Virus record (IMG/VR): IMGVR_UViG_3300020182_000024
Length of the DNA: 64,000 bases
Origin: an uncultured virus (IMG/VR IMGVR_UViG_3300020182_000024)
Lineage: Duplodnaviria > Heunggongvirae > Uroviricota > Caudoviricetes
Reading direction: 5' to 3' (one strand)
The notes below the pieces were generated by a model. The model did not search any database. It was not told the DNA's origin and saw nothing but the letters and a program-made list of their open reading frames with translations. The position numbers and the translations under genes were made by a program. Positions 1 through 47,410 of the stretch are shown here, piece by piece. Each line of letters begins with the position of its first letter. Position 1 is the first letter of the stretch.

Positions 1-56
1 AGCTTATATCTCCGTAACTTAGGTTACATAACTATGCCTGATAATTGAAATAACAT

Positions 57-85
57 TTGACCACTAAGTTATAAAGGTGTATCAT
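57..85 (+). promoter_or_regulatory. sigma70-type promoter
   Basis: TTGACC-17 nt-TATCAT upstream of cassette array A. Confidence 0.6.
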
Positions 86-219
86 AGCATACATAACAAT
101 AAGAGAGATTACTATGATGGAATAGTATTTTACTTATAATCTAATAGGTTATAAAGTTTACTACTGTATTCTATCACGGTAAGTCCTCTTGATTCTGAGT
201 GCCTGTAAGAAAAGTAAAT

Positions 220-378
220 ATGTGGAGTGGGGATGTGTTCTATTTAAAATTAAAGCAGCTTGTGCGTGATGCGGATAAATATACACCTCAAGAAATATCA
301 AACGCACTTAGCAGACTAAAAGAAGTGGCTGACCACCAGCAGTGGGAGCTAACAATGTCTAAAATGGGTGTCTCATGA
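220..378 (+). CDS. small hypothetical protein (52 aa, below ORF-track cutoff)
   Basis: Hand translation MWSGDVFYLKLKQLVRDADKYTPQE...KMGVS; TGA stop lies in the left core of attC-like site A1. Confidence 0.55.
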   Translation: MWSGDVFYLKLKQLVRDADKYTPQEISNALSRLKEVADHQQWELTMSKMGVS

Positions 379-444
379 CCTATATGTAAACTGAGAGGAA
401 CGAAGAATGAGTGACGAGTCAAGTTTGACACCGTTGTTATGTTT
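374..444 (-). mobile_element. attC-like site A1 (left core degenerate, GAC)
   Basis: CATGAC-5nt-TGTAAACT ... AGTTT[G]ACA-5nt-GTTATGTTT; imperfect inverted repeat with an extra G in the right arm. Confidence 0.7.
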
Positions 445-589
445 GCCAACTTTTCAGGCTGCTAGAAGGGCTTGCGGACTTTTTGAGAGGGAGTATATCG
501 GGCAGAACAAGAAAGAACTTTGGGAGTGGGCTGTAAAAACTTCACTGAAAGAGCGTGAGAAAATTGAGCGAGATTTACAGAAAACATAA
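407..589 (+). CDS. cassette-borne hypothetical protein
   Basis: ORF starts inside site A1; bounded by GTTATGTTT (436) and its reverse complement AAACATAAC (582). Confidence 0.7.
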   Translation: MSDESSLTPLLCLPTFQAARRACGLFEREYIGQNKKELWEWAVKTSLKEREKIERDLQKT

Positions 590-669
590 CCTTATTTTTA
601 GCTGCGGCGGTACGCAGCATGAAGTAAAGCAGTTTTATAACCGTCTGCTATAAAATGGTTGTTATGTGT
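582..669 (-). mobile_element. attC-like site A2
   Basis: AAACATAAC ... ATTTTTAGCTGCGG ... CCG[T]CTGCTA[T]AAAAT ... GTTATGTGT hairpin with two extra bases in the right arm. Confidence 0.8.
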
Positions 670-682
670 TTTTTAATTAAGG

Positions 683-880
683 GTGGTAAATATTATGGCG
701 GATAATTGGTTAAGTGTTGAGGATAGTTTACCAGATGACGGTAATTACGAAGTTAAAGTGGTAAATAACGGCAAGGAATTGGTAGCAAAAAGGAGATTGA
801 TTAAAGGGCATTGGTTTGGTGGTTGTAGACCATTTACGGATGGCGAGAAAGTAACGCACTACAAAGCTACTGACACATAA
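683..880 (+). CDS. cassette-borne DUF551-like small protein
   Basis: WLSVEDSLP...VTHY pattern; bounded by GTTATGTGT (661) / ACACATAAC (873). Confidence 0.7.
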   Translation: MVNIMADNWLSVEDSLPDDGNYEVKVVNNGKELVAKRRLIKGHWFGGCRPFTDGEKVTHYKATDT

Positions 881-953
881 CCTAATTGTATGCGGCTACC
901 GAAGCAGCGCGTAGGTAGTCCGAGCGAAGCGACATGACATAGTTGTTATGTGT
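873..953 (-). mobile_element. attC-like site A3
   Basis: ACACATAAC-5nt-TGTATG..GGCTACC..GGTAG[T]CC..GCGAAGC..CAT[G]ACA-5nt-GTTATGTGT. Confidence 0.85.
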
Positions 954-973
954 GAATTACGGGAGATAGAAAG

Positions 974-1204
974 ATGAGTGAAAGAGTTGGAACGCTAAAG
1001 AGCTATGTAGAAGCACCAAAGTGGGCAGCATTTCCAAAGTTTTTAAAAAATACCTGTTTTATGTATGACCTTAAAGTTATCTATATGGATATAGACAAAG
1101 GCTGGATACGTGAAACTGTAAGATTCAAAGTGGAAGGCGGCGAGTCTAATTTACGCAGACTGCAAAAAGCCATAGATATTGGCGTGGAAGAGTACAACAC
1201 ATAA
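974..1204 (+). CDS. cassette-borne hypothetical protein
   Basis: RBS GGAG; bounded by GTTATGTGT (945) / ACACATAAC (1197). Confidence 0.75.
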   Translation: MSERVGTLKSYVEAPKWAAFPKFLKNTCFMYDLKVIYMDIDKGWIRETVRFKVEGGESNLRRLQKAIDIGVEEYNT

Positions 1205-1317
1205 CACTGTAATTATACGTCGTTATTTTGTGTCAGCTTGACGTATAATTACAAAATCATCTTAACAAATACAGTAATAATCAATGGCTTACATAAACAG
1301 ACGTGTTTAATTGCGTC
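1201..1317 (-). mobile_element. attI-like array-terminal site, copy 1
   Basis: Near-identical inverted copy at 21173-21288; 13-bp inverted repeat GTAATTATACGTC/GACGTATAATTAC; IHF consensus AATCAAtggcTTA at 1279-1291; distal GACGTGTTTAATTGCGTC. Confidence 0.65.
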
Positions 1318-14902: not shown

Positions 14903-15203
14903 TAAAAATTAAAATTGAATGTATATATTAACCTATATTATTAGTAAAATCAACTGTAAAATACATATTAGGAGTATAAAACTCCAGAAAATTAAAATTT
15001 AGACTCTATTATATCACTGAGTTAGGATATTAGAGATGCTGAAAATACATAGGGAATGGCTTCTGATGTATTATTAGGATGTAGTATATAGGGAGTATAA
15101 TTATGTAAATAGTAGCTAAGCACCCCTCTACGCCCATGTCAAATAACTTGTAGGATTTTAAAATACGCTTATTATAACCAAATATTATATACTATCACTA
15201 CAA

Positions 15204-15311
15204 GCTCTTGTAAGCCTCTCTAAGCTATCCTAATATCACCCTATACTACCCTACAGGGTATACTCTAAAACGCTCTCAGAATGGCTAAAAAGGGGCTTCT
15301 CGAAGGTGTTT
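15204..15311 (+). repeat. dispersed ~108-bp element, copy 2
   Basis: GCTCTTGTAAGCCTCTCTAAG..ACCCTATACTACCCTAC..AAAACGCTCTCAGAATGG..GGCTTCTC. Confidence 0.85.
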
Positions 15312-17435: not shown

Positions 17436-18185
17436 CCTTGTCTATATTATGTTAGCTTACGCTAACGAAATTAAAGTTTAATACTGTATTCAGTCACTTC
17501 ATCTCTCTTATCTATAGATATAATAGAGCCATCTTTTAAAACAATAGTAGTTAATAATGATTATTAGACAATGATAGTAGTCACTCTCTATATTAACTAC
17601 TTTTATTGTATTAATTATATTGAACAACTCTTCTTCACTTATTTCTTTTATAGTCATAATATTCGCCCTATATTATGTTAGCGTAAGCTAACGAGATTAA
17701 ACTTATTAACATATATTCTATTAATATACATTATAAGAGCATTATTTCATGTATATAATACCTTGTCAATAGCTTATTAGTAATATATCTATATAAGTGT
17801 TATATACAACAATTACTACTATGCTGGTGTTTGAGCTAGCGTTAGCTAGTGAGTATAGCATAACAATATAGGGTATAACAATGTTAGTATATAAAAAGAT
17901 TAAGGGCGGGGGTTCTACCCCTGTCCCGCCTTGACTAAACTATTATTAATAAGCATTTGGTATAATAAACTATTATAGCGTTACTCTGTCACAGTATAAA
18001 TAGATAGCTTACGCTATCGAAACAATGTGACAATATATAAGTATATTATAAATTACTATATAATGATGATAGAATAGACTGTAGAAGTGCAACACTAACT
18101 ATTGGTTATTGAATTATGTATATGATTTAATAGGTAATGGTAATAGATTTTTTTCTATTATTATTATATAGGGAAAAACTTGCGA

Positions 18186-18334: not shown

Positions 18335-18633
18335 AAATAGGGTATTAAGTTAGTGTATAAGTTAACATCCGTATTAACTTATGGTTATTGGATTATAGGT
18401 ATCCTTTTATTCTATAAAAACTCTACTGTAGCATACTTGTATCTATTACAAACTATAACCGCTTCATTATAGTTTTTAAACTTTATAGCGTCATAATGAA
18501 CGTAACTATCAAAACTACTACTATTACCTTTACTGCATAAAAACTTACCGCTTGATTCCATAATATAGTACATTTTATCACCTTTATAATTTATTAATTG
18601 ACACTACTTATAAACACTACGTAGATACGTGTA

Positions 18634-18742
18634 TTTAGACCCCTGAGAACGCCCATAGAGGCCTATATTAGAGCGTTTTAGCCTTACCTAATAGGGTAGT
18701 AAGGGTATGAACAACAAGCCCGTACAGGGGCTTATATTAGCT
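18634..18742 (-). repeat. dispersed ~108-bp element, copy 4
   Basis: Reverse complement: TAAGCCCCTGTACGGGC..ACCCTTACTACCCTA..AAAACGCTCT..GGGCGTTCTCAGGGGT. Confidence 0.85.
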
Positions 18743-18751
18743 CGTATATAG

Positions 18752-20128
18752 CTATCTATAATTAGATAACACTTGTCCAGTTTGATGTCTCTTGCATCGT
18801 AATAACCCACTAGGGACATCACTAGCCTTACCAATAACAACTCCACAGAATGTAGGTTCGTAGCCTTGGCGTGTGTATTTCAGTCCATAGCGTGTATTTA
18901 TAGAGCCATCTAACTCTTCAATGTGTAGCTTTTGTTGTTCTGTTGTAATAGACATATTAGTCACCTTATTGGTTGTGGCTATTGTTTACCAGCTTGTTAA
19001 CAAGTATAAGCATATTTCCTAGCAATGCAAGCTATTTATAATAAATCTATTTCAATATTGTCGAAATAACCTATTCTAAAATGTAGATTCCTATAGTTAT
19101 ACTCTTTTAACCCTTTTTCTAACATTAATCCGCGTAACATATTAACACTATTATGAGTTTGTATGTAATCTGAGTCTATATTACTATGTACCTTGTTCGC
19201 ATACTCTATCAAGTTGTTATCTGTTAACTCTTGATATTTATGGCAATCTTTTAGATCATTTGTGGGTTTATTGGGTGATATTGTTACAGGTTGGGTGCTT
19301 CCGAAAAAATTAAACATATTATATTCCCCTAGCATCTATTATCAAAAACATAGTATTCATCATTGCTACTCTCAAACTCATCTTGACTATGATCGTAACT
19401 ATTAAAATGATGACCATAACCATCTAAACTACTGTATTCTGCTTGCAACTCCTCTAATTTACCTAATGAAATAATAAGTTTACCTATAGCCTCGTAGGCC
19501 TCTGCCTCTTGCATGGCTTCTAAAACCTCGCAATCAATATCTAGGATATTGGATAAAAAGTTACTATTAAAGCAACCTAGGATATATAGATCATTTTCAA
19601 GCTCTTCTTGTTGGATACTATCAATACAATCTGATTTTATAAATCTTACATTATCCACTTCAAAATCGTTTACTTCTTCTATAATGTTTTGTAGTACTTC
19701 TCTATAATCCGGTTGGCTGTTTAATATCTCACAGTATTCTTTGATTGATTTAATTTCTGAATATTTCATGATGTTTATACCTTTTTAATTTGTTTGTATT
19801 TTCTTGAATCTCTCAAGATGTGGCTATTTTACATGGTGTTCTTAGTGTGTCAATGGTTTAATTCAGAAAAATGAATATTATTTTCCTTTAGTACTTTTAT
19901 TAAGTAATGGGTATTAACAGCGTTGTTATCCCAGATACCAAAACAATCTAACTCACATAATTCTGCTATTTCATCTGTCATACACTCGACTAAGTGATCA
20001 TAATTTTTTGCTACAACGTACCACTTTTGATCATAACCTGTCTTGATAGGTAAAGACCTTGTTATATGTGGATGATGAAAGTATATTTTCTCATTTTCTG
20101 AATCTAAGTTAACACTTAATAATGTCAT
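18752..20128 (-). other. four early-type hypothetical CDS
   Basis: ORFs 18752-18964, 19036-19335, 19329-19769 (acidic), 19850-20128, with nearby sigma70-like promoters. Confidence 0.7.
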
Positions 20129-20734: not shown

Positions 20735-20762
20735 TTGACAACTAGCAAGGATGCTGTATAAT
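20735..20762 (+). promoter_or_regulatory. strong sigma70-type promoter
   Basis: TTGACA-16 nt-TATAAT. Confidence 0.65.
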
Positions 20763-20922
20763 TTCTTATAAGCAATAGGGAAAACGCCGCTCATTTATTA
20801 TAAAATAATAAAGGGTTACAAATTCACCCAACACATCTATAAGTTTATATAACTAAAAGTTATAAGCGAATCATCTCTTATTCCAAAAAGGAATATAAAT
20901 TTTTATTATAAAATCTGTGTAA

Positions 20923-21157
20923 ATCCATTTTTCTGTTTTTATATGAAAATACCCATTTGACCAATAGCCTTTTTTCTATATAACCAAAAAGAATAAGTAT
21001 ACCACCCCTTATAACTAGAAGAGATATACATTTTCAATATCAAATCTATTTTATATCCATTTTTGTATAAAAATATGAAAAAGCCCATTTGACTAAATTT
21101 TACTATTAGATATAAATTGAATTTTACATTTTTATATGAAAATCACCGTTTGACTAA
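20923..21157 (+). repeat. three copies of an ATATGAAAA..CCRTTTGACYAA motif
   Basis: Copies at 20941, 21073 and 21134; a fourth at 25519. Confidence 0.75.
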
Positions 21158-21172
21158 ATTTTATAAAGAGTT

Positions 21173-21288
21173 GACGCAATAAAACACGTCAATCTAAATT
21201 TAACTTTTAATATCAACAACTTGTATATCCGCGCGCAAAGATATACGTCAAAGTGACTCAAAATAACGACGTATAATCACAGTGTTAT
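21173..21288 (+). mobile_element. attI-like array-terminal site, copy 2
   Basis: Inverted near-copy of 1201-1317; IHF consensus TATCAAcaacTTG at 21211-21223; ends ...ACAGT-GTT at 21284. Confidence 0.65.
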
Positions 21289-21617
21289 CAGTATAAGTTT
21301 TCACTGTAGAGCGTACCGCCATCCGCGGTGTCGCCTCCAACCCTTCGTATTATCTGCCCCGCAGCTTCGGCAACTTTCCATGCCTCCACTCTACTTAGAA
21401 ACTCTCCTTTCTGGTTAATAAACCCCTGTTCAGATGCAACCCAGCCGTACCTTTCGGCAGCCATCAATTCTTCTTTTTGGTTGTGCATAAATCCATCCCA
21501 GTGCCTAACGCCAATCAACAAATGTTTTGTTGCTAGGTGCTGATTGGCAGCACACACTATTCGCTCACTGATAACAACTTCATCAATTTGACTCATTCCG
21601 CTTCGCTCCATTCTCAA
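21288..21617 (-). CDS. cassette-borne hypothetical phage protein (likely start MSQIDE at 21596)
   Basis: IVCAAN..RHWD..QGF..F.SR.EA..LYSENLY; bounded by GTTATCAGT (21284) / ACTGATAAC (21567). Confidence 0.8.
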   Translation of the reverse strand: MRMERSGMSQIDEVVISERIVCAANQHLATKHLLIGVRHWDGFMHNQKEELMAAERYGWVASEQGFINQKGEFLSRVEAWKVAEAAGQIIRRVGGDTADGGTLYSENLY

Positions 21618-21637
21618 TTTATGTAAAGGTTAGCTGT
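21567..21637 (+). mobile_element. attC-like site C2
   Basis: ACTGATAAC-5nt-CAT[C]AATTTGA..GCTTCGC..TCAATTTATG-5nt-GTTAGCTGT; canonical attC layout on the + strand. Confidence 0.85.
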
Positions 21638-21846
21638 CAAAAGCATTCTTTAAGCCTTTCTTCTAACCCTTCTGCTTCGCTCTCACTTGGTATGCCATCA
21701 ACGACAATTATAGTTCTGTCATCTTGCCACTCATAATCTGAGTAGCCCTCATTTTCCAGCGTATCCTCAATTTGAACCTTTCCGCAAATATTTCCTTCAC
21801 CTACATTTAGCGTGATGTAATATTCTTCTACCTGATAAACTGGCAT
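21637..21846 (-). CDS. cassette-borne acidic hypothetical protein
   Basis: Bounded by GTTAGCTGT (21629) / ACAGCTAAC (21871); AGGAG RBS. Confidence 0.8.
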   Translation of the reverse strand: MPVYQVEEYYITLNVGEGNICGKVQIEDTLENEGYSDYEWQDDRTIIVVDGIPSESEAEGLEERLKECF

Positions 21847-21870
21847 ATCTCAATCTCCTGTTAAATTATT

Positions 21871-21923
21871 ACAGCTAACAACGTAATCGTGCCTGACGTT
21901 TCCCACCTCGCGCGATTAGTAGT
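21871..21923 (+). mobile_element. degenerate attC-like site C3
   Basis: ACAGCTAAC..TAATCG..CGATTA hairpin; distal GTT core missing. Confidence 0.55.
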
Positions 21924-22727
21924 CTAAATACTCAATTACACAACTACCAATCATATTTTCTTTAATCACGGCTTCTGGATTATTGTAACAACCAAAACCC
22001 TCATCACTTGCATCGTTATCATCTTCTACATATTTATCTAATACTTCCGTAAGTACATCGACACAATCAAAAAGCGCATCTAAGTTACCGCTAGTTTCTT
22101 CTAAAAATCTTTCTCTATTAAATCTCATTTTTTCTCCTAGTATTATAACACTCTTACAGCAGCACTCATAAAACTATCTATATTTATGTATATATCATAG
22201 TTCTTAATATAACATACATTATTATAAATGTAAATATCTCTATCCTTATATTTTCCAACTTGTTCCTTACATTTCTCTAATTGTACATCAACAAATTGGG
22301 GAGGTGTAAGTAAGATAGATAATATTAGTAATCTAGACAACAACATGATATAAGAATAATTGAATTGCATAAATACCAGCCAAACCCACTAATCCCCATC
22401 CTAACCAATATAATACTAAACTAGGCTTATGTAAGTCAACTCTTGTAATCATATATCTATCATTATTCCGAAGATAATTAATAAATAATAAAATAGCTAA
22501 TAGTAAGCTACCACCAAACTTAATCCAAATATCTAACATGATTCTTCTCCTAACTGGTTAATTTCAAATAACCCTACTTCCACATCTTCCATCCAGTAGT
22601 GATTTCTATTACGTGACATACTATCTACTATAGCATCTACAGTTAATACACTCTTACTAGCTGTATGGAAGTAGATTTCATCACTTTTAGTGTTGTATGC
22701 AATCCAATATTTGTTATCTTCGTTCAT
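21916..22727 (-). other. four small hypothetical CDS, two hydrophobic
   Basis: ORFs 21916-22128, 22143-22370, 22333-22539, 22533-22727. Confidence 0.7.
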
Positions 22728-25162: not shown

Positions 25163-25459
25163 TTAGTAATAAAACTGCAAATTGTTTTTAGTTTTATAAC
25201 CTTCTTGCCTAAGTGCGTTAATCATATTATCTCTACCTACAGGATTACTAGTCACTAGCTCCACTTTTCTTGGTAAGACTTCATTATTTATTGCCCACAT
25301 CATAATATCATAACCACTCTCACAATCTCCTAGATCATGGTCGAAGATTACACAAGTTATATACGCTTCTAGCTTCTGTAGGACTTGTTTAGCAGCATCA
25401 GGTGTTCTAGCTATAATATCCGCAGGTGTATTTCGTAGATCATCTATCAGTAAGTACAT
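25163..25459 (-). CDS. cyclic-phosphate-processing-type receiver-domain protein
   Basis: LLIDDLR..ART..FDHDLG..GYDI..W..VTSNPVG..NM. Confidence 0.75.
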   Translation of the reverse strand: MYLLIDDLRNTPADIIARTPDAAKQVLQKLEAYITCVIFDHDLGDCESGYDIMMWAINNEVLPRKVELVTSNPVGRDNMINALRQEGYKTKNNLQFYY

Positions 25460-31802: not shown

Positions 31803-34800
31803 ATGACTAACATTACAGGAGACATAGAGACTAATAATCTACTCAATAATGAGTCTATTAATTACAATGCTAGCCCATATTGTCTTAAAGATACTTATAA
31901 GACCCACTGTATTGTATTAGAGATACATGAGACTAATGAGATTATAGCCTTCTACGATGGCGATAAGTATATACTAGATGGTCGCGAGTTTATTGAGAAA
32001 GATGATAAATATACTTATGAGCTAAAAGATTATGAACCTATTAAATATACACATTATCAATTAGGTGAGTTCCCTAATTATATTAAAGGTATTAAGGATT
32101 TAAATAAGGTTATATTTCACAATGGGATTAACTTCGATTTTCTCTCTTGTAAACTTTATTTTGATATGGATTATACTATTGGTGGTTTAGATGGAGAGTC
32201 TGATACATGGTGTGGTAGAGAAGTAGATATTGTAGATACAATGATCTTATCTAAAACATTAAATAGTGATCGTTTCTGTGGGCATAGCTTAGATAAGTTA
32301 TCTAAAGTGGCTGGAGGTGCTGAAAAGATAGATTTTAGACCCCATGTACCTAAAAAAGATATGTACAATACATTTGCAGCGGATATGTTATACTATAACA
32401 TTTTTGATGTGAAGTCTAACACAGATGTATATAATTACTTAGAACATGAACGTACACAGGATGGTTGGGATTGGGATGCAGCTATTAGATTAGAGAAGAA
32501 AACGGCTGAAATAGTAACTCGCTCATCGCATCGTGGGTTCAAGTTTGATGTGAAGTTGGCTGAAAAGTGTATACATGAGTTAGACGAACTTATGTCAGAA
32601 CGTAGACAACGTGTAGAACCATTACTCCCACCTCGTGCAGCTACTAAGAAGTTCCTTAAAGAACATACACCTCCAGCATCACAAGTATTGACTAAGGATA
32701 TTACACTACCTAAGAAATTCTTTAATAAGGATTTAAGTTTATCTAAGACAGCTACATCTTGGTTAGAGAAGTGGGATGGTGAATATGATGATGATAAGAA
32801 GATTATTAAAGTGCAGGGTAACGTATTAAAGCGTGATACAACTACAGGCTTTCCAGAGGTAGCATTCACACAACAAACTGTAGCAGCACACATGGTTAAT
32901 TTTGTTAATAAACATAATGGTGTTATTAATGAAGATGATATGACAGTGGAGTTATTTGGAGAGGTTTATAAGCTGCCTGTTGCTGTTGAGCCGTTGAAGA
33001 CGACTATGGTTGCTGAAATAAAAAATACAACTCATATTAAAGAGTGGCTGGTATCTTTAGGATGGCAACCATCTGAATATAAGATGAAGGATATTACTCT
33101 AAAGTCTGGTACTAAGATTAAACGTGACTCAGAAGATTTAGAAAAAGCTGTAGATAGATATATTGCTGAAACACTAGAGTCAGAGTTTTGTAAAGATAGA
33201 TGCGCCCAGTTAAAAGCTAGACCTACTGAACATAGCCTGAAACGTATTATTATGGAAAAAGCTAATAAGTATGGATGTAAAGTATTGACCAGCCCCTCCT
33301 TCACAATCGGACAGGAAAAAGAACTATGTAAGGATTTAGAGCGTATCGCTGAGAGATTTCCTTATGTACAAGATATTGTAGAATACCTTACATATAAACA
33401 TAGACGTTCAAGTATTTTAGGCGGAGATGTAGATTGGGATAGTGATGAAGAGCCTGAAAAAGGGTATATGGCTCATGTAAGGGATGATGGCAGGATAGCT
33501 GCACCAGCAGATACTCTAGGTGCTGCAACAGGAAGAATGCGCCATAAGAATATTGTTAATGTCCCAAGAGTTTCTTCTCTATATGGCAAGGAAATGAGAT
33601 CCTTGTTTAAAGTAGAAGACGATTGCTTAAAAATTGGAAGCGATATGGCTAGTTTAGAAGCACGTCTTGAGGGACATTATTGTCATAAATATGATGTTGA
33701 AGGTAAACCTTATTGTAAATCCTTAACCTTATCTCAACCTAATGATGTACACTCATTGACTGCTAATTATATATCAAGTATTATAGGTAAAGATTTCTCA
33801 AGATCTAATGCTAAATCTGTTAAATACTCGTGCCTACCTGTAGAAAATACAGAGGTTCTGACAACTTCTGGTTGGAAGTATTATCATGAGTTATGTGAAG
33901 GAGATGAGATACTTAATTATAATGTTGACACGAATATGATCGAGAGGGATTTTATTTCTAAACTCCATTATTATAAAGATGCAGAAATAATGAAAGTAAG
34001 TAATAAGTTTTATGGTTTTGAAGCAACACCTGATCATAGATGGTATGGTTGGAATAGGAGAATGAAGGGTAGTGGAAAGACTGCAACTCGCTTCAATGAG
34101 TATAAATTCTTTACAACGGAAGAGATGAACTCCGAATATAATATTTTATGTGCAGCTCCCTATAAGGGTGGATCGTCTATTATTACCAAAGATGAGAGTG
34201 CATTAGTAGCTTGGCTATTATCAGATGGTTACTATTTCTGGTCAGATAGGAGTGAGACTACCTCTGCGAGTAATGGCAGACTTAAAGGGATAGTTGCCAG
34301 TATATCTCAATCTAAGAATAAGTTTTATAAAGAAGTTGAACAAATATTGGGAATTAATAATATAGAGTATACTAAAGATTTCTATAAGAAAGATAATGGA
34401 AATGATGTTTATACTTATAGATTAAAAAGTAATGATATAAGAGATTTTATGGGTAGAGTTGTAAAATCTAGGAATCAGAAACATGAAGTAGATTGGGCAT
34501 CTTGGGTACTCGATTTAAGTAAGGATGCTTTAGATTCTTTTATCTATAATTTCTGGTTAGCAGATGGTGCATCTAAAGGGATGGAATTTAATAAATGCAC
34601 TAAAATATATCAAAATGAAGGGAAAATAGCGGATGCAGTTGCCTTGGCACTTTACTTACAAGGCAATCGGATATCTATTACTGATCATACACAAGAAAAG
34701 AAATGTAAGAATATTACTCAATTAAGGTTGTCCCATTTTGGCATGGGAAATACTAAAAAAGAGATGATAGAGAATAAGGATGTATTTTGTTTAACTGCAC

Positions 34801-35603
34801 CTAATAGTACTTTTATATTTAGACAAAACGGATTTATAAGTATTACAGGTAATTGCACATTTGGAGGAGGTGCGTCTAAGATTGCTAATATTATTGGAGA
34901 ATCTAGTTCTGTGGGTGAGATAGTTTTTGATTCATTTTGGAAATCAGCGGCACCCCTTACTAAGTTAAAGGTTGCTGTAGAGAAATGGTGGGAAGCTAAA
35001 GGCAATAGGAAGTTTATAAAGGGCTTAGATGGGAGGCAAGTTAGAACTAGATTTAAACATGCACTATTAAATTCTTTGTTACAGTCAGGTGGTGCTATTG
35101 CTACTAAAACTATGGCTGTATTTCACGATCAGTTATTAACAGAAGAAGGATTACAAATTGACTTCTTTAAAGATGATTGGAAGAATACAGAGTTTAATCA
35201 ACTTATGATTATTATGCATGATGAGATAGCATTAGAGGAGTCTAAAAGTAGGTTCAAATTTAAAAAGTTTAACAGTGAAGAAGATGCCTTGACATTCTCT
35301 AAAGAAGATGATAGAATATGGAGTGAGGTAATAGAAGGTAAAAATAATACTTACTTTCTTAATATTGACGGTATAAACGATTCTCAATTATATAAGACTA
35401 AAGGAGAGGCTAAGTCTGCATTTAAAAGGATAGAAGGTAAGTGTAAGGTGTTACCATCTATAGGAAATTTGTATTATTTAGCACATACTAAAGCTGGAGA
35501 GTTAATATCTAAAGCTGTGGAGATGACTAATAATCATTATAAACTAAAAGTACCCTTGGAGATGGGGTATGCTGTGGGAGTGTCGTGGGCTGATACACAT
35601 TAA
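31803..35603 (+). CDS. family A DNA polymerase with 3'-5' exonuclease and intein
   Basis: DIET, HNGINFD, TGRMRH, DMASLEAR, RSNAKSVKYS|CTFG, LNSLLQS, MHDE, SWADTH. Confidence 0.95.
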   Translation: MTNITGDIETNNLLNNESINYNASPYCLKDTYKTHCIVLEIHETNEIIAFYDGDKYILDGREFIEKDDKYTYELKDYEPIKYTHYQLGEFPNYIKGIKDLNKVIFHNGINFDFLSCKLYFDMDYTIGGLDGESDTWCGREVDIVDTMILSKTLNSDRFCGHSLDKLSKVAGGAEKIDFRPHVPKKDMYNTFAADMLYYNIFDVKSNTDVYNYLEHERTQDGWDWDAAIRLEKKTAEIVTRSSHRGFKFDVKLAEKCIHELDELMSERRQRVEPLLPPRAATKKFLKEHTPPASQVLTKDITLPKKFFNKDLSLSKTATSWLEKWDGEYDDDKKIIKVQGNVLKRDTTTGFPEVAFTQQTVAAHMVNFVNKHNGVINEDDMTVELFGEVYKLPVAVEPLKTTMVAEIKNTTHIKEWLVSLGWQPSEYKMKDITLKSGTKIKRDSEDLEKAVDRYIAETLESEFCKDRCAQLKARPTEHSLKRIIMEKANKYGCKVLTSPSFTIGQEKELCKDLERIAERFPYVQDIVEYLTYKHRRSSILGGDVDWDSDEEPEKGYMAHVRDDGRIAAPADTLGAATGRMRHKNIVNVPRVSSLYGKEMRSLFKVEDDCLKIGSDMASLEARLEGHYCHKYDVEGKPYCKSLTLSQPNDVHSLTANYISSIIGKDFSRSNAKSVKYSCLPVENTEVLTTSGWKYYHELCEGDEILNYNVDTNMIERDFISKLHYYKDAEIMKVSNKFYGFEATPDHRWYGWNRRMKGSGKTATRFNEYKFFTTEEMNSEYNILCAAPYKGGSSIITKDESALVAWLLSDGYYFWSDRSETTSASNGRLKGIVASISQSKNKFYKEVEQILGINNIEYTKDFYKKDNGNDVYTYRLKSNDIRDFMGRVVKSRNQKHEVDWASWVLDLSKDALDSFIYNFWLADGASKGMEFNKCTKIYQNEGKIADAVALALYLQGNRISITDHTQEKKCKNITQLRLSHFGMGNTKKEMIENKDVFCLTAPNSTFIFRQNGFISITGNCTFGGGASKIANIIGESSSVGEIVFDSFWKSAAPLTKLKVAVEKWWEAKGNRKFIKGLDGRQVRTRFKHALLNSLLQSGGAIATKTMAVFHDQLLTEEGLQIDFFKDDWKNTEFNQLMIIMHDEIALEESKSRFKFKKFNSEEDALTFSKEDDRIWSEVIEGKNNTYFLNIDGINDSQLYKTKGEAKSAFKRIEGKCKVLPSIGNLYYLAHTKAGELISKAVEMTNNHYKLKVPLEMGYAVGVSWADTH
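33831..34853 (+). mobile_element. intein (341 aa) with LAGLIDADG-type motifs
   Basis: CLPVENTEVLTTSGW..TPDH..WLLSDG..FWLADG..VFCLT..ITGN followed by Cys+1. Confidence 0.93.
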
Positions 35604-47083: not shown

Positions 47084-47410
47084 TTAAACATCATTATTTT
47101 TTATTATTATTTTATCTAAGAACTTAGAGAAATTATCTTTAGGTATTACTTCAAATTCACATTGCAAGTCATAAGATGTATAGATATATATCTGAGACTC
47201 TGGGTGTGTATCCTGTATTTCCCTTGCTAATTCTAAACCATCTTTAACACCTAATAGGTAGTCTACCAGAAAGATATCATAATCTACTAATTCTTTTACA
47301 TCTATATCTTCATCTACTACTTTATATTTAATCACTTTCCTAGTTTCAAGTACAGCAGATATGAGATACCTGTGAGCTTCATTATCATCTATGTAGACTA
47401 TTTTAATCAT
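47084..47410 (-). CDS. stand-alone CheY-like response-regulator receiver domain
   Basis: IVYIDD, DIFLVD (phosphoacceptor), DGLELA, IYTS, IPK. Confidence 0.88.
   Translation of the reverse strand: MIKIVYIDDNEAHRYLISAVLETRKVIKYKVVDEDIDVKELVDYDIFLVDYLLGVKDGLELAREIQDTHPESQIYIYTSYDLQCEFEVIPKDNFSKFLDKIIIKNNDV

What the first reader, a model, noticed from the sequence alone, without database searches (positions are those of the whole stretch)
21173..21923. Second cassette array (C), inverted, with cassette-specific covarying cores
Seen: gene 21288-21596 is bounded by GTTATCAGT/ACTGATAAC and gene 21637-21846 by GTTAGCTGT/ACAGCTAAC. The cores differ between cassettes but are perfectly complementary within each one. 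Site 21567-21637 reads as a textbook attC on the + strand (TGATAAC, 5 nt, CAT[C]AAT, GCTTCGC loop, ATTTATG, 5 nt, GTTAGCT), while both genes are on the - strand. Inference: the covariation implies each unit once existed as a circle in which the two cores paired, and it independently supports the reversed polarity of array A.
Basis: partly seen in the sequence, partly recalled or inferred. Interest (0 to 1): 0.9.

Follow-up and report, generated by a model that had tools for sequence, protein, structure and literature searches.

The report
Integron-like gene cassettes in a phage
Two small genes of a lytic marine phage each sit between the two halves of a hairpin-forming recombination site, like bacterial integron cassettes, which suggests that phages swap accessory genes as plug-in units.

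Summary
Gene 21288-21596(-) is flanked by a 10-nt perfect inverted repeat and gene 21637-21846(-) by a 9-nt one. Alone, each is near chance in this AT-rich phage. The same architecture recurs in a sister array at 345-1260(+) and in 11 other viral or metagenome contigs.

In gene orientation a unit reads GTTGTTA + 5 variable nt, ORF, 5 complementary nt + TAAC(C). With sites defined without using complementarity, 18 of 25 distinct units pair 5/5, against 11 of 576 non-cognate pairs.

When each unit's two ends are joined, the site folds like an integron attC: a 9-bp R stem, a symmetric unpaired spacer, and an L stem with a bulged G and then T.

The bulges lie on the coding strand, opposite the AAC arm, so the genes are antisense to canonical cassette polarity.

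Near-identical relatives differ by whole units, with breakpoints at the cores.

Against this: no integrase in the window or in six related viral records. Array C's internal site is the weakest folder of 34. Homologues of both genes elsewhere lack cores. Circles were not tested.

attC clusters without an integrase are already published for virulent phages (Qi et al. 2023), so this is a new variant of a known kind.

The parts
21171..21192 (-). Terminator-like hairpin with a T-rich tail directly downstream of the array. It is conserved after the sister array (1300-1317, +) and in L076/L096.
21236..21283 (-). Conserved terminal element that follows the last unit. It is a hairpin with arms at 21242-21249 and 21268-21275. 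It is homologous to window 1202-1250 (+) and to the array ends in L076/L081 and L096. It could be the original insertion site of the array, or attI-like if the polarity is read canonically.
   Evidence: In runs X1, X3 and X4, contigs match only 21173-21288 and then diverge.
21284..21292 (-). 3' core of unit c2 (ACTGATAAC on the coding strand). It contains the TGA stop followed by TAA.
21288..21596 (-). Unit c2 gene, 102 aa, of the T4 Y16D family (PF26092, function unknown; phrog_839). About 50% GC in a 23-33% GC neighbourhood.
21567..21575 (-). 5' core of unit c2 (GTTATCAGT on the coding strand, preceded by GTT). It lies inside the c2 ORF.
21576..21628 (-). Interior of the c1-c2 site (53 nt). 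It carries the RBS and ATG of c2 and a GCGAAGC mini-hairpin motif on the coding strand. It is homologous to the a1-a2 site at 379-432. The same interior occurs between other units in runs X1, X3 and X4.
21629..21637 (-). 3' core of unit c1 (ACAGCTAAC on the coding strand), directly after the TGA stop.
21637..21846 (-). Unit c1 gene, 69 aa, an orphan with no family. Its only phage relative is gp13 of Pseudoalteromonas phage BS5 (48.5% identity).
21871..21879 (-). 5' core of unit c1 (GTTAGCTGT on the coding strand, preceded by GTT), 25 nt upstream of the ATG.
21880..21923 (-). Degenerate upstream site between the stop of gene 21916-22128 and the c1 core. It is a short hairpin with TAAT in place of TAAC and marks the upstream edge of the array.
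433..1250 (+). Sister array with three units (cores at 436/582, 661/873 and 945/1197), two attC-like sites (580-671 and 872-953) and the same terminal element (1202-1250).

Best explanation
Array C is a two-unit gene-cassette array of the integron (attC) type that lacks an integrase, the arrangement called a CALIN. It lies at the 3' end of a leftward early-type operon of a lytic marine myovirus.

Each unit carries the two halves of one hairpin site: GTTA+5 nt at its 5' end and the complementary 5 nt+TAAC at its 3' end. If the unit is excised as a circle the halves meet. Together with the 45-75-nt interior they form a folded single-stranded site with a 9-bp R stem, a 4-5-nt unpaired spacer, an L stem with bulged G/T and a variable tip. 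A structure-specific tyrosine recombinase of the integron-integrase kind would cut in the conserved AAC/GTT and move or swap units. No such enzyme is encoded in the 64 kb, so it is presumably the host's or lies elsewhere in the phage.

The strand that carries the bottom-strand features is the coding strand, so the genes are antisense to canonical cassette polarity and are read from phage promoters. The units carry accessory genes: here a T4 Y16D-like protein and an orphan, and in sibling arrays Dam and Mom DNA-modification genes.

Shown: the architecture, the covariation, the folding, the strand asymmetry, and whole-unit differences between relatives. Inferred: circles, the recombinase, and any activity of array C itself.
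For: (1) Cores at the stated places, 9/9 and 10/10 complementary.

(2) The same GTTGTTA+5 / 5+TAAC frame in the sister array 433-1250 and in 11 other contigs. In the unbiased test 18 of 25 units pair 5/5, against 11 of 576 non-cognate pairs and 3 of 44 within-site pairs. There are 16 different pentamers.

(3) Sites rebuilt with their own 5' core fold at a mean of -12.4 kcal/mol (z -3.8, n=19), against -9.5 as they lie in the array. For c1 the values are -7.7 (z -2.2) against -2.7.

(4) attC anatomy in 18 distinct sites. A symmetric 2-5-nt spacer follows the R stem in 12 of 18. The first bulge lies on the 3' arm in 9 of 18 (G in 6, A in 2, T in 1) and on the 5' arm in 0; the other 9 are uninformative. 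This matches the bottom-strand description in Nivina 2016.

(5) Strand asymmetry. The coding strand folds better in 30 of 34 sites. GCGNAGC, a motif of very stable DNA mini-hairpins (PMC13037366, abstract in listing), occurs 15 times on the coding strand and 0 times on the complement.

(6) Modular turnover. Window 1-884 is 100% identical to L096 2363-3246. After that the window holds one unit and L096 holds two others, and homology resumes at the TAAC of the last unit. Body B5 lies in two arrays with different neighbours, and the homology block runs only from core to core. L080 and L097 differ by one unit against two units between shared units.

(7) In runs X1, X3 and X4, contigs match only 21571-21632 (58-62 nt, 3-4 differences) or only 21173-21288, and run on unlike beyond the cores.

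(8) 37 of 44 distinct bodies have their longest ORF on the strand that reads TAACC...GTTGTTA.

(9) attC clusters without an integrase in virulent phages, recombined by IntI1 in 5 of 6 tested sites, are published (Qi 2023, PMC9892861).
Against: No tyrosine recombinase or other recombinase was found. PHROGs was run on all 124 window ORFs and Pfam on 95 of them. PF00589 was found in 0 of 6 related viral records, but all are fragments, 21-47% complete.

Array C's internal site is the weakest of 34 (-1.4 kcal/mol, z +0.7). It does not fold as it lies in the array and has a mismatch instead of an extrahelical base.

No second copy of c1 or c2 was found in any other array.

Homologues lack cores. For c2, 43 distinct loci were measured of 72. 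Their longest end repeats were 5-9 nt, like the null, and none was GTTA-type. For c1, BS5 gp13 sits in a tight operon without cores.

Body B5 has different site interiors on both sides. Strict one-sided integron crossover does not predict this.

The accepted attC detectors (IntegronFinder, HattCI) could not be run.

The site 20-mer is absent from 185,579 bacterial species genomes, and the terminal 17-mer gave only 24 chance hits there. No link to a host integron is therefore shown.

Circles were not tested, because the sequencing runs are held as contigs only.
Confidence: 0.6

Rival explanations
1. PeSL-like modular shuffling. The conserved intergenic hairpins would be regulatory elements (terminators or RBS carriers) that serve only as portable homology for the phage's general recombination. 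No structure-specific recombinase would be involved.
For: Site interiors recur at 91-100% identity between arrays while all bodies differ. Some interiors look terminator-like (S7/S9 in L079). Two site types carry the RBS and ATG of the next gene. Body B5 is unlinked from the interiors on both sides. L076's record encodes a protein that I judged RecT-like by eye from its translation; no family search was run on it. PeSL-mediated shuffling and mini-circles are documented in T4-type phages (Arbiol 2010, PMC2839356, abstract read).
Against: Homology-driven exchange gives no reason for the unit-specific complementary pentamers (18 of 25 at 5/5 against 11 of 576). It also gives no reason for the attC-like spacer plus G/T bulges on one strand or for the strand-specific GCGNAGC motifs. 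The sites lack sigma70-like promoters. None lies in the array C or array A' sites, and in L079's array 8 were found against 10.4 expected. PeSLs are direct repeats, whereas here the ends of each unit are inverted repeats.
Confidence: 0.2
2. RNA-level function. The 9-nt ends would pair in the polycistronic mRNA and bracket each cistron next to a local hairpin, for processing, stability or translational control. The covariation would then reflect RNA structure, not mobility.
For: Pairing across the gene is what such stems would show. All units are co-transcribed on one strand. The stop codon and the RBS sit in or next to the paired elements.
Against: A 9-bp AU-rich stem would have to close loops of 150-760 nt. 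No G.T (G.U) pair occurs among the imperfect units in the unbiased set; the five 4/5 units listed have A.A or G.A at the outermost position. The motif enriched on the coding strand is one known for DNA mini-hairpins. Whole-unit replacement between 100%-identical flanks needs a DNA-level process anyway. Rfam found nothing in the window.
Confidence: 0.1
3. Chance inverted repeats in AT-rich DNA around two ordinary early genes.
For: Inverted repeats of 9 nt or more bracket 16 of 124 window ORFs. There are 263 9-mer inverted pairs at 150-500 nt spacing in the window. Homologues of both genes lack cores.
Against: Both pairs share the frame GTTGTTA+5 / 5+TAAC with 3 units of the sister array and with dozens of units elsewhere. 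The flanks of array C are homologous to the ends of other arrays.
Confidence: 0.02

Closest known systems
[quoted passage not shown]
   Same: Units of one small ORF plus a 60-90-nt imperfect hairpin site. Conserved AAC/GTT in the R boxes. The 5' end of each unit is complementary to its own inverse core. There is an unpaired central spacer, bulged G and T on one strand, and a variable tip. The stop codon often lies in the inverse core. Site families are homogeneous around unrelated genes, as in chromosomal arrays.
   Different: Genes lie on the strand with bottom-strand features, so polarity is reversed. The R stems are 9 nt and mostly perfect. No intI and no recognisable attI. Some sites carry the RBS and start codon of the next gene. 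The sites were not found in bacterial genomes by exact-pattern scans. Recognition by an integrase is untested.
CALINs in virulent phages: Qi, Rajabal, Ghaly, Tetu and Gillings 2023, Front Microbiol (PMC9892861), for example Pseudoalteromonas phage PH101/H101 (NC_029094)
   Same: A lytic marine myovirus with a cluster of attC-type sites, small unknown genes and no integrase. DNA-modification genes occur among phage cassettes (Dam and Mom in the sibling arrays here). H101 has the same order of neck, sheath and baseplate genes.
   Different: There is no DNA similarity: blastn of both arrays against 50,697 phage records gave no match. H101 shows no GTTA-type units above chance, 14 against about 8 expected. 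The section I read (3.4) and the passages found by term search say that PH101 cassettes are co-oriented as is typical, and I saw no mention there of reversed polarity, unit-specific cores or turnover between relatives. I could not read its supplement, which lists the 17 phages, so this lineage may or may not be on that list.
PeSL mobile regulatory cassettes of T4-type phages: Arbiol et al. 2010 (PMC2839356, abstract read) and Comeau et al. 2014 (PMC4122927, listing only)
   Same: Small non-essential ORFs in plastic regions of lytic myoviruses, separated by conserved hairpin-containing elements. Relatives differ by whole units, and circles are proposed as vectors.
   Different: PeSLs are a promoter plus a terminator acting as direct repeats for homologous exchange. 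The sites here lack promoters. They have unit-specific inverted cores and attC-like single-strand anatomy.
pdif (Xer) modules of Acinetobacter plasmids (recalled, no call)
   Same: Gene modules bracketed by inversely oriented recombination sites used by a host tyrosine recombinase.
   Different: pdif sites are 28-bp duplex sites with a 6-nt spacer. The sites here are 60-90-nt hairpins with variable pentamers. Not tested.

Membership tests
Integron cassette array / CALIN (attC sites) | Two or more attC sites close together with no integron integrase nearby | tested here: met
   Three sites lie within 21236-21923 (one internal, one degenerate upstream, one terminal). No recombinase was found among the window ORFs. 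The sites were called by my own criteria, not by IntegronFinder.
Integron cassette array / CALIN (attC sites) | R'' / R' boxes with conserved AAC ... GTT, and the 5' end of each cassette complementary to its own inverse core | tested here: met
   c1 is 9/9 and c2 is 10/10. In the wider family 18 of 25 units pair 5/5 against 11 of 576 non-cognate pairs. The RRRY/RYYY purine-pyrimidine pattern beyond GTTA is not kept.
Integron cassette array / CALIN (attC sites) | The single strand folds into R stem, unpaired central spacer, L stem and variable terminal structure; length 57-141 nt | tested here: met
   19 rebuilt sites of 62-92 nt fold at a mean of -12.4 kcal/mol, z -3.8. A spacer of 2-5 nt on each arm is seen in 12 of 18. 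Array C's own internal site meets this only weakly (-7.7, z -2.2 when rebuilt; -1.4, z +0.7 without the pentamers).
Integron cassette array / CALIN (attC sites) | Extrahelical bases (G in L'', then T) on the arm opposite AAC of the recombined strand | tested here: inconclusive
   Met in 9 of 18 sibling sites, and 9 are uninformative. Not met in array C's internal site, which has a 1x1 mismatch instead.
Integron cassette array / CALIN (attC sites) | ORF on the top strand, which is the canonical orientation for expression from Pc | tested here: not met
   The bulges and the GCGNAGC motifs mark the coding strand as bottom-like (with Nivina 2016). 37 of 44 bodies are coded on that strand.
Integron cassette array / CALIN (attC sites) | Score above threshold with the attC covariance model (IntegronFinder, HattCI+Infernal) | not testable with these tools
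   No attC model is held. Rfam has none, and a scan of the window gave 0 matches.
Integron cassette array / CALIN (attC sites) | Recombination by an integron integrase; circular cassette intermediates | not testable with these tools
   The runs are held as contigs only, and no circle-type joint was listed.
PeSL regulatory cassettes (T4-type phages) | Strong sigma70-like early promoter plus terminator stem-loop in each intergenic element, acting as direct repeats | tested here: not met
   No promoter-like hit lies in the sites of array C or array A'. In L079's array 8 were found against 10.4 expected. The ends of each unit are inverted repeats, not direct repeats.
T4 Y16D family (PF26092), for gene 21288-21596 | Sequence and fold likeness to family members | tested here: met
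   ESM Atlas feature score 0.93, with all 30 hits in this family, and TM 0.82 over 91 residues. phrog_839 at E 3.8e-22. 72 viral loci at 32-62% identity. The Pfam copy held here gave no hit.

The most novel reading that the evidence does not exclude
These arrays would be a phage-borne cassette system in its own right rather than debris captured from host integrons. Its hairpin sites were not found in 185,579 bacterial species genomes. It is shared by unrelated marine phages, carries genes on the recombinogenic strand, ends in a conserved terminal (attI-like) element, and includes sites that supply start codons. Phages would use it to plug counter-defence and other accessory genes in and out. 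The enzyme would be either the host's integron integrase, hijacked during infection, or an unrecognised phage recombinase.
Probability: 0.3. Interest if true: 0.85.

Novelty: new variant of a known kind. Interest (0 to 1): 0.65.

Why it matters
Integrons are regarded as bacterial devices. attC clusters in phages were reported only in 2023, from detector hits plus an IntI1 assay.

Here the sequence itself shows the signature that first revealed cassettes as circular units: the ends of each unit are complementary to each other. It appears in many units, in several phage lineages, and together with whole-unit differences between otherwise identical phages.

If the sites are active, lytic phages have a plug-in mechanism for small accessory genes. 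Dam and Mom anti-restriction genes are among the cargo in sibling arrays. The mechanism would depend on a recombinase they do not carry next to the array.

The reversed gene polarity and the near-perfect 9-bp R stems also give a natural test case for two questions: how strand choice and R-box pairing control attC recombination, and where cassettes come from.

Tried and rejected
(1) Chance. This was my first reading, from the high background of inverted repeats. I dropped it after finding the sister array and the sibling arrays.

(2) The linear site 21560-21645 as a self-folding attC. It is no better than shuffles on either strand.

(3) Cores around homologues of c2 and c1. None were found.

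(4) The window's own genome is not held. The nearest record, G001, matches only 15199-15284.

(5) Megablast and blastn of both arrays against 50,697 phage records gave no match.

(6) Bacterial genomes. The site 20-mer gave 0 hits. The terminal 17-mer gave 24 hits with no flanking likeness, about the number expected by chance.

(7) Pseudoalteromonas phage H101, a published phage CALIN, has no GTTA-type units above chance, and its spacers at 53-60 kb do not resemble these sites.

(8) A recombinase search in the window and in 6 viral records found none. Four metagenome loci could not be searched because they are not held.

(9) PADLOC on the 7 array proteins gave nothing. PDB sequence search with c2 gave nothing. 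The ESM Atlas gave no usable family for c1.

(10) Rfam gave nothing on the window, and no tRNA was found.

(11) The first unbiased site definition, a lazy regular expression, picked TAAC words inside genes and was replaced.

(12) Sequencing runs are kept as contigs only. No circle-type or deletion joint at the cores was listed. The one joint listed (20397/20468, run X3) lies outside the array. Parts of the stretch without cover in X3 and X4 carry no meaning.

(13) Transposon or MITE reading rejected: the terminal repeats vary between units, there are no direct target duplications, and the units tile with conserved spacers.

(14) The supplement of Qi 2023 could not be read.

(15) Earlier notes of this scan held nothing on this genome.
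Full report
WHAT THE WINDOW IS. The 64 kb are 34% GC and hold no tRNA. They encode a contractile-tail phage. PHROGs names a sheath, baseplate, tape measure and holin at 46-64 kb. Replication and nucleotide-metabolism genes lie at 1.3-9.6 kb and 27-44 kb. A long run of small unknown minus-strand ORFs lies at 9.6-25.6 kb. The closest named phages are only about 30-33% identical in the sheath protein. The window's genome is not held. The best holders of the stretch are marine metagenome runs.

THE OBSERVATION. The first pair is in fact 10 nt long. The two ORFs exist.

Taken alone the repeats are not impressive. Inverted 9-mers at 150-500 nt spacing occur 263 times in the window. 16 of 124 ORFs have an end-zone inverted repeat of 9 nt or more, and shuffled end zones reach 9 nt in 3-4% of trials. 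The right arm of the first pair lies inside the ORF. The left arm contains the stop codon after a C-terminal ...NLY that recurs among the family members printed.

The claimed 'textbook attC' at 21567-21637 does not fold as it lies in the array. The + strand gives -2.0 kcal/mol and 190 of 200 shuffles fold at least as well. The - strand gives -3.9 kcal/mol and 165 of 200. My first reading was therefore chance.

WHY THAT READING WAS WRONG. Scoring all window ORFs for end repeats turned up three adjacent + strand genes at 407-1204 with nearly the same cores. Read in gene orientation, both arrays share one frame. Each ORF is preceded by GTTGTTA plus five variable bases. It is followed by the five complementary bases plus TAAC, usually TAACC.

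The sequence after the last gene of each array is homologous between the two arrays: 1202-1250 on + and 21236-21292 on -.

A 19-mer of that terminal element found one other viral contig. It holds four units of the same kind with four new cores. A 20-mer of site 580-671 found four more viral records and seven further metagenome contigs.

These sources hold 44 distinct unit bodies in all.

THE TEST OF COVARIATION. To avoid circularity I defined sites without using complementarity: the nearest TAACC lying 34-110 nt upstream of NT[T/C]GTTA. I then compared the pentamer after one site with the pentamer before the next.

Of 25 distinct bodies bracketed in this way, 18 pair 5/5, five pair 4/5, one pairs 3/5 and one pairs 0/5. 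The last spans a site that the definition missed. Pentamers on the two sides of the same site pair 5/5 in 3 of 44 cases. Non-cognate pairs with different cores pair 5/5 in 11 of 576. Sixteen different pentamers are in use.

The pairing therefore runs across the gene and not across the intergenic element, and it is far beyond chance. Array C's own units fall outside this sample because their outer sites lack TAACC. They were verified directly.

ANATOMY OF THE SITES. I joined each unit's 3' core and downstream interior to that unit's own 5' core, which is the form a circle would have. This gives hairpins of 62-92 nt with a mean DNA energy of -12.4 kcal/mol (mean z -3.8, n=19), against -9.5 for the sites as they lie in the arrays. 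For c1 the figures are -7.7 (z -2.2) against -2.7.

The folds show a 9-bp stem, then a symmetric internal loop of 2-5 nt per arm in 12 of 18 distinct sites. A second stem follows, whose first irregularity is a single bulged base on the 3' arm in 9 of 18: G six times, A twice, T once. A second bulged T often follows. None has that first bulge on the 5' arm, and nine are uninformative multiloops or staggered loops.

This is the description of the attC bottom strand: the AAC triplet on one arm and the extrahelical G and T on the other (Nivina et al. 2016, passages read).

Two further asymmetries point the same way. Without the pentamers, the coding strand folds better than its complement in 30 of 34 distinct sites. 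GCGNAGC, the motif of very stable DNA mini-hairpins (abstract in the listing), occurs 15 times in 13 of 34 interiors on the coding strand and never on the complement.

POLARITY. 37 of 44 bodies have their longest ORF on that same strand. The genes therefore lie on the bottom-like strand, antisense to the canonical arrangement. Array C's own internal site has a C.T mismatch rather than an extra base. It is also the weakest of the 34 sites (-1.4 kcal/mol, z +0.7).

EVIDENCE THAT UNITS ARE EXCHANGED. No two bodies from different positions were alike in the first six arrays, while site interiors recurred at 91-100% identity. With more arrays, repeated bodies appeared in different company.
- Body B5 lies in L079 and in L095 between different neighbours. 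The homology block runs only from the GTTGTTA core to TAACC.
- L080 and L097 share the flanking units. Between them L080 holds one unit and L097 holds two others.
- Window 1-884 is 100% identical to L096 2363-3246, ending 3 nt after the TAAC of the second unit. After that the window holds one unit and L096 holds two different ones. Homology resumes at the TAAC of the last unit, 1202-1247, at 95.7%.

For array C itself, contigs of three metagenome runs match only 21571-21632, which is the site from TAAC-complement to GTTA, with 3-4 differences. Others match only 21173-21288. All of them run on unlike sequence beyond the cores. So the sites of array C occur around other units elsewhere.

L096 and L076 also share array C's downstream flank, 21161-21291, at 83-85% identity. 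That flank ends in a terminator-like hairpin at 21192-21171.

WHAT SPEAKS AGAINST, OR IS MISSING. No recombinase was found. PHROGs was run on all 124 window ORFs and Pfam on 95 of them. PF00589 was found in 0 of 6 related viral records, all of them fragments.

Neither c1 nor c2 was found as a unit anywhere else. For c2, 43 distinct homologue loci were measured of 72; the other 29 were duplicates or lay too near a contig end. Their end repeats were 5-9 nt, like the null, and never GTTA-type. The only phage homologue of c1, gp13 of Pseudoalteromonas phage BS5, sits in a tight operon followed by a terminator and has no cores.

B5's unlinking from the interiors on both sides does not fit a strictly one-sided crossover. 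It needs crossovers at both R boxes or later exchange.

The site words are absent from one genome each of 185,579 bacterial species, so no tie to a host integron is shown. Exact-word scans would, however, miss diverged sites.

Circles could not be looked for, because the runs are kept as contigs. The standard attC detectors are not available here.

THE GENES. c2 is a T4 Y16D-family protein of unknown function. Its roughly 50% GC in a 23-33% GC neighbourhood marks it as a recent arrival. c1 is an orphan.

In sibling arrays, 6 of 32 proteins scanned have a Pfam family: Dam methyltransferase, Mom, ASCH, DUF7352, DUF7167 and DUF1523. Dam and Mom fit a counter-restriction cargo. PADLOC found nothing in the seven window array proteins.

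The c1-c2 site and the homologous a1-a2 site contain the RBS and ATG of the downstream gene. That is why c2's 5' core lies inside its ORF.

COMPARISON WITH WHAT IS KNOWN. The architecture is that of integron cassettes. Clusters of attC sites without an integrase in phages, including virulent ones such as Pseudoalteromonas phage PH101/H101, were reported by Qi et al. 2023. They showed IntI1-mediated recombination for 5 of 6 phage sites (abstract, section 3.4 and passages read).

The window is not H101 and shares no DNA with it or with any of 50,697 phage records. H101 has no GTTA-type units above chance. In the section and passages of that paper that I read I saw no mention of reversed polarity, unit-specific cores or turnover between relatives. 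Its supplement could not be read.

PeSL cassettes of T4-type phages (Arbiol 2010, abstract read) work alike at the level of outcome. They are promoter-terminator direct repeats, and the sites here lack promoters.

VERDICT. Array C is a small, rather degenerate member of a real family of integron-like cassette arrays in marine phages, with genes in reversed polarity. The claim of a textbook attC at 21567-21637 is overstated. Activity, circles and the recombinase remain inferred. I rate it a new variant of a known kind, interest 0.65.

Noticed in passing
window 345-1260 (+): Sister array with three units (ORFs 407-589, 683-880, 974-1204) sharing the architecture and terminal element of array C. 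Its first 884 bases are 100% identical to a metagenome contig (L096) that carries two different units in place of the third.
   Followed up: yes
window 17451-17466, 17677-17692, about 18003-18016: Near-palindromes of the form GTTAGC, 4 nt, GCTAAC, each about 22 nt upstream of the start of a small minus-strand ORF (17435, 17657). They look like promoters with an operator or 5' stem-loops. They share GTTAGC with the c1 core, which may be coincidence.
   Followed up: no
window 20735-21200 (+): A 12/12 consensus sigma70 promoter at 20735-20762, and three direct repeats of about 50 nt (20920-20970, 21052-21102, 21113-21163) that carry promoter-like hexamers. All point into the 3' end of array C, antisense to its genes.
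   Followed up: no
window 21200-21700 and 18600-19000: GC-rich islands (44-50% and about 40%) in a 23-33% GC neighbourhood. The first is the Y16D-like gene and looks recently acquired.
   Followed up: partly
window 21576-21628 and 379-432: Two homologous site interiors carry the ribosome-binding site and ATG of the downstream gene. The site therefore supplies the first 7-10 codons, and the 5' core lies inside the ORF.
   Followed up: partly
window 31803-35603 (+): The DNA polymerase ORF of 1266 aa matches polymerase profiles in two separated stretches (residues 2-678 and 1000-1266). This suggests an insert of about 320 residues, possibly an intein or a nuclease.
   Followed up: no
window 25166-25459 (-) and 47087-47410 (-): Small stand-alone receiver-type proteins in a phage: cREC_REC (E 2.4e-18) and Response_reg (E 7.8e-08).
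   Followed up: no
L079 497-733 (its - strand; unit 9, core GTTATAAAT): A 237-nt unit with perfect cores but no ORF longer than 9 aa on either strand, and several hairpins. It may be a non-coding cassette.
   Followed up: no
L122 2501-2701 (Pseudoalteromonas phage BS5 gp13): The only named-phage homologue of c1 (48.5% identity). It is an ordinary operon gene without cores, which hints at Pseudoalteromonas as the host group.
   Followed up: partly
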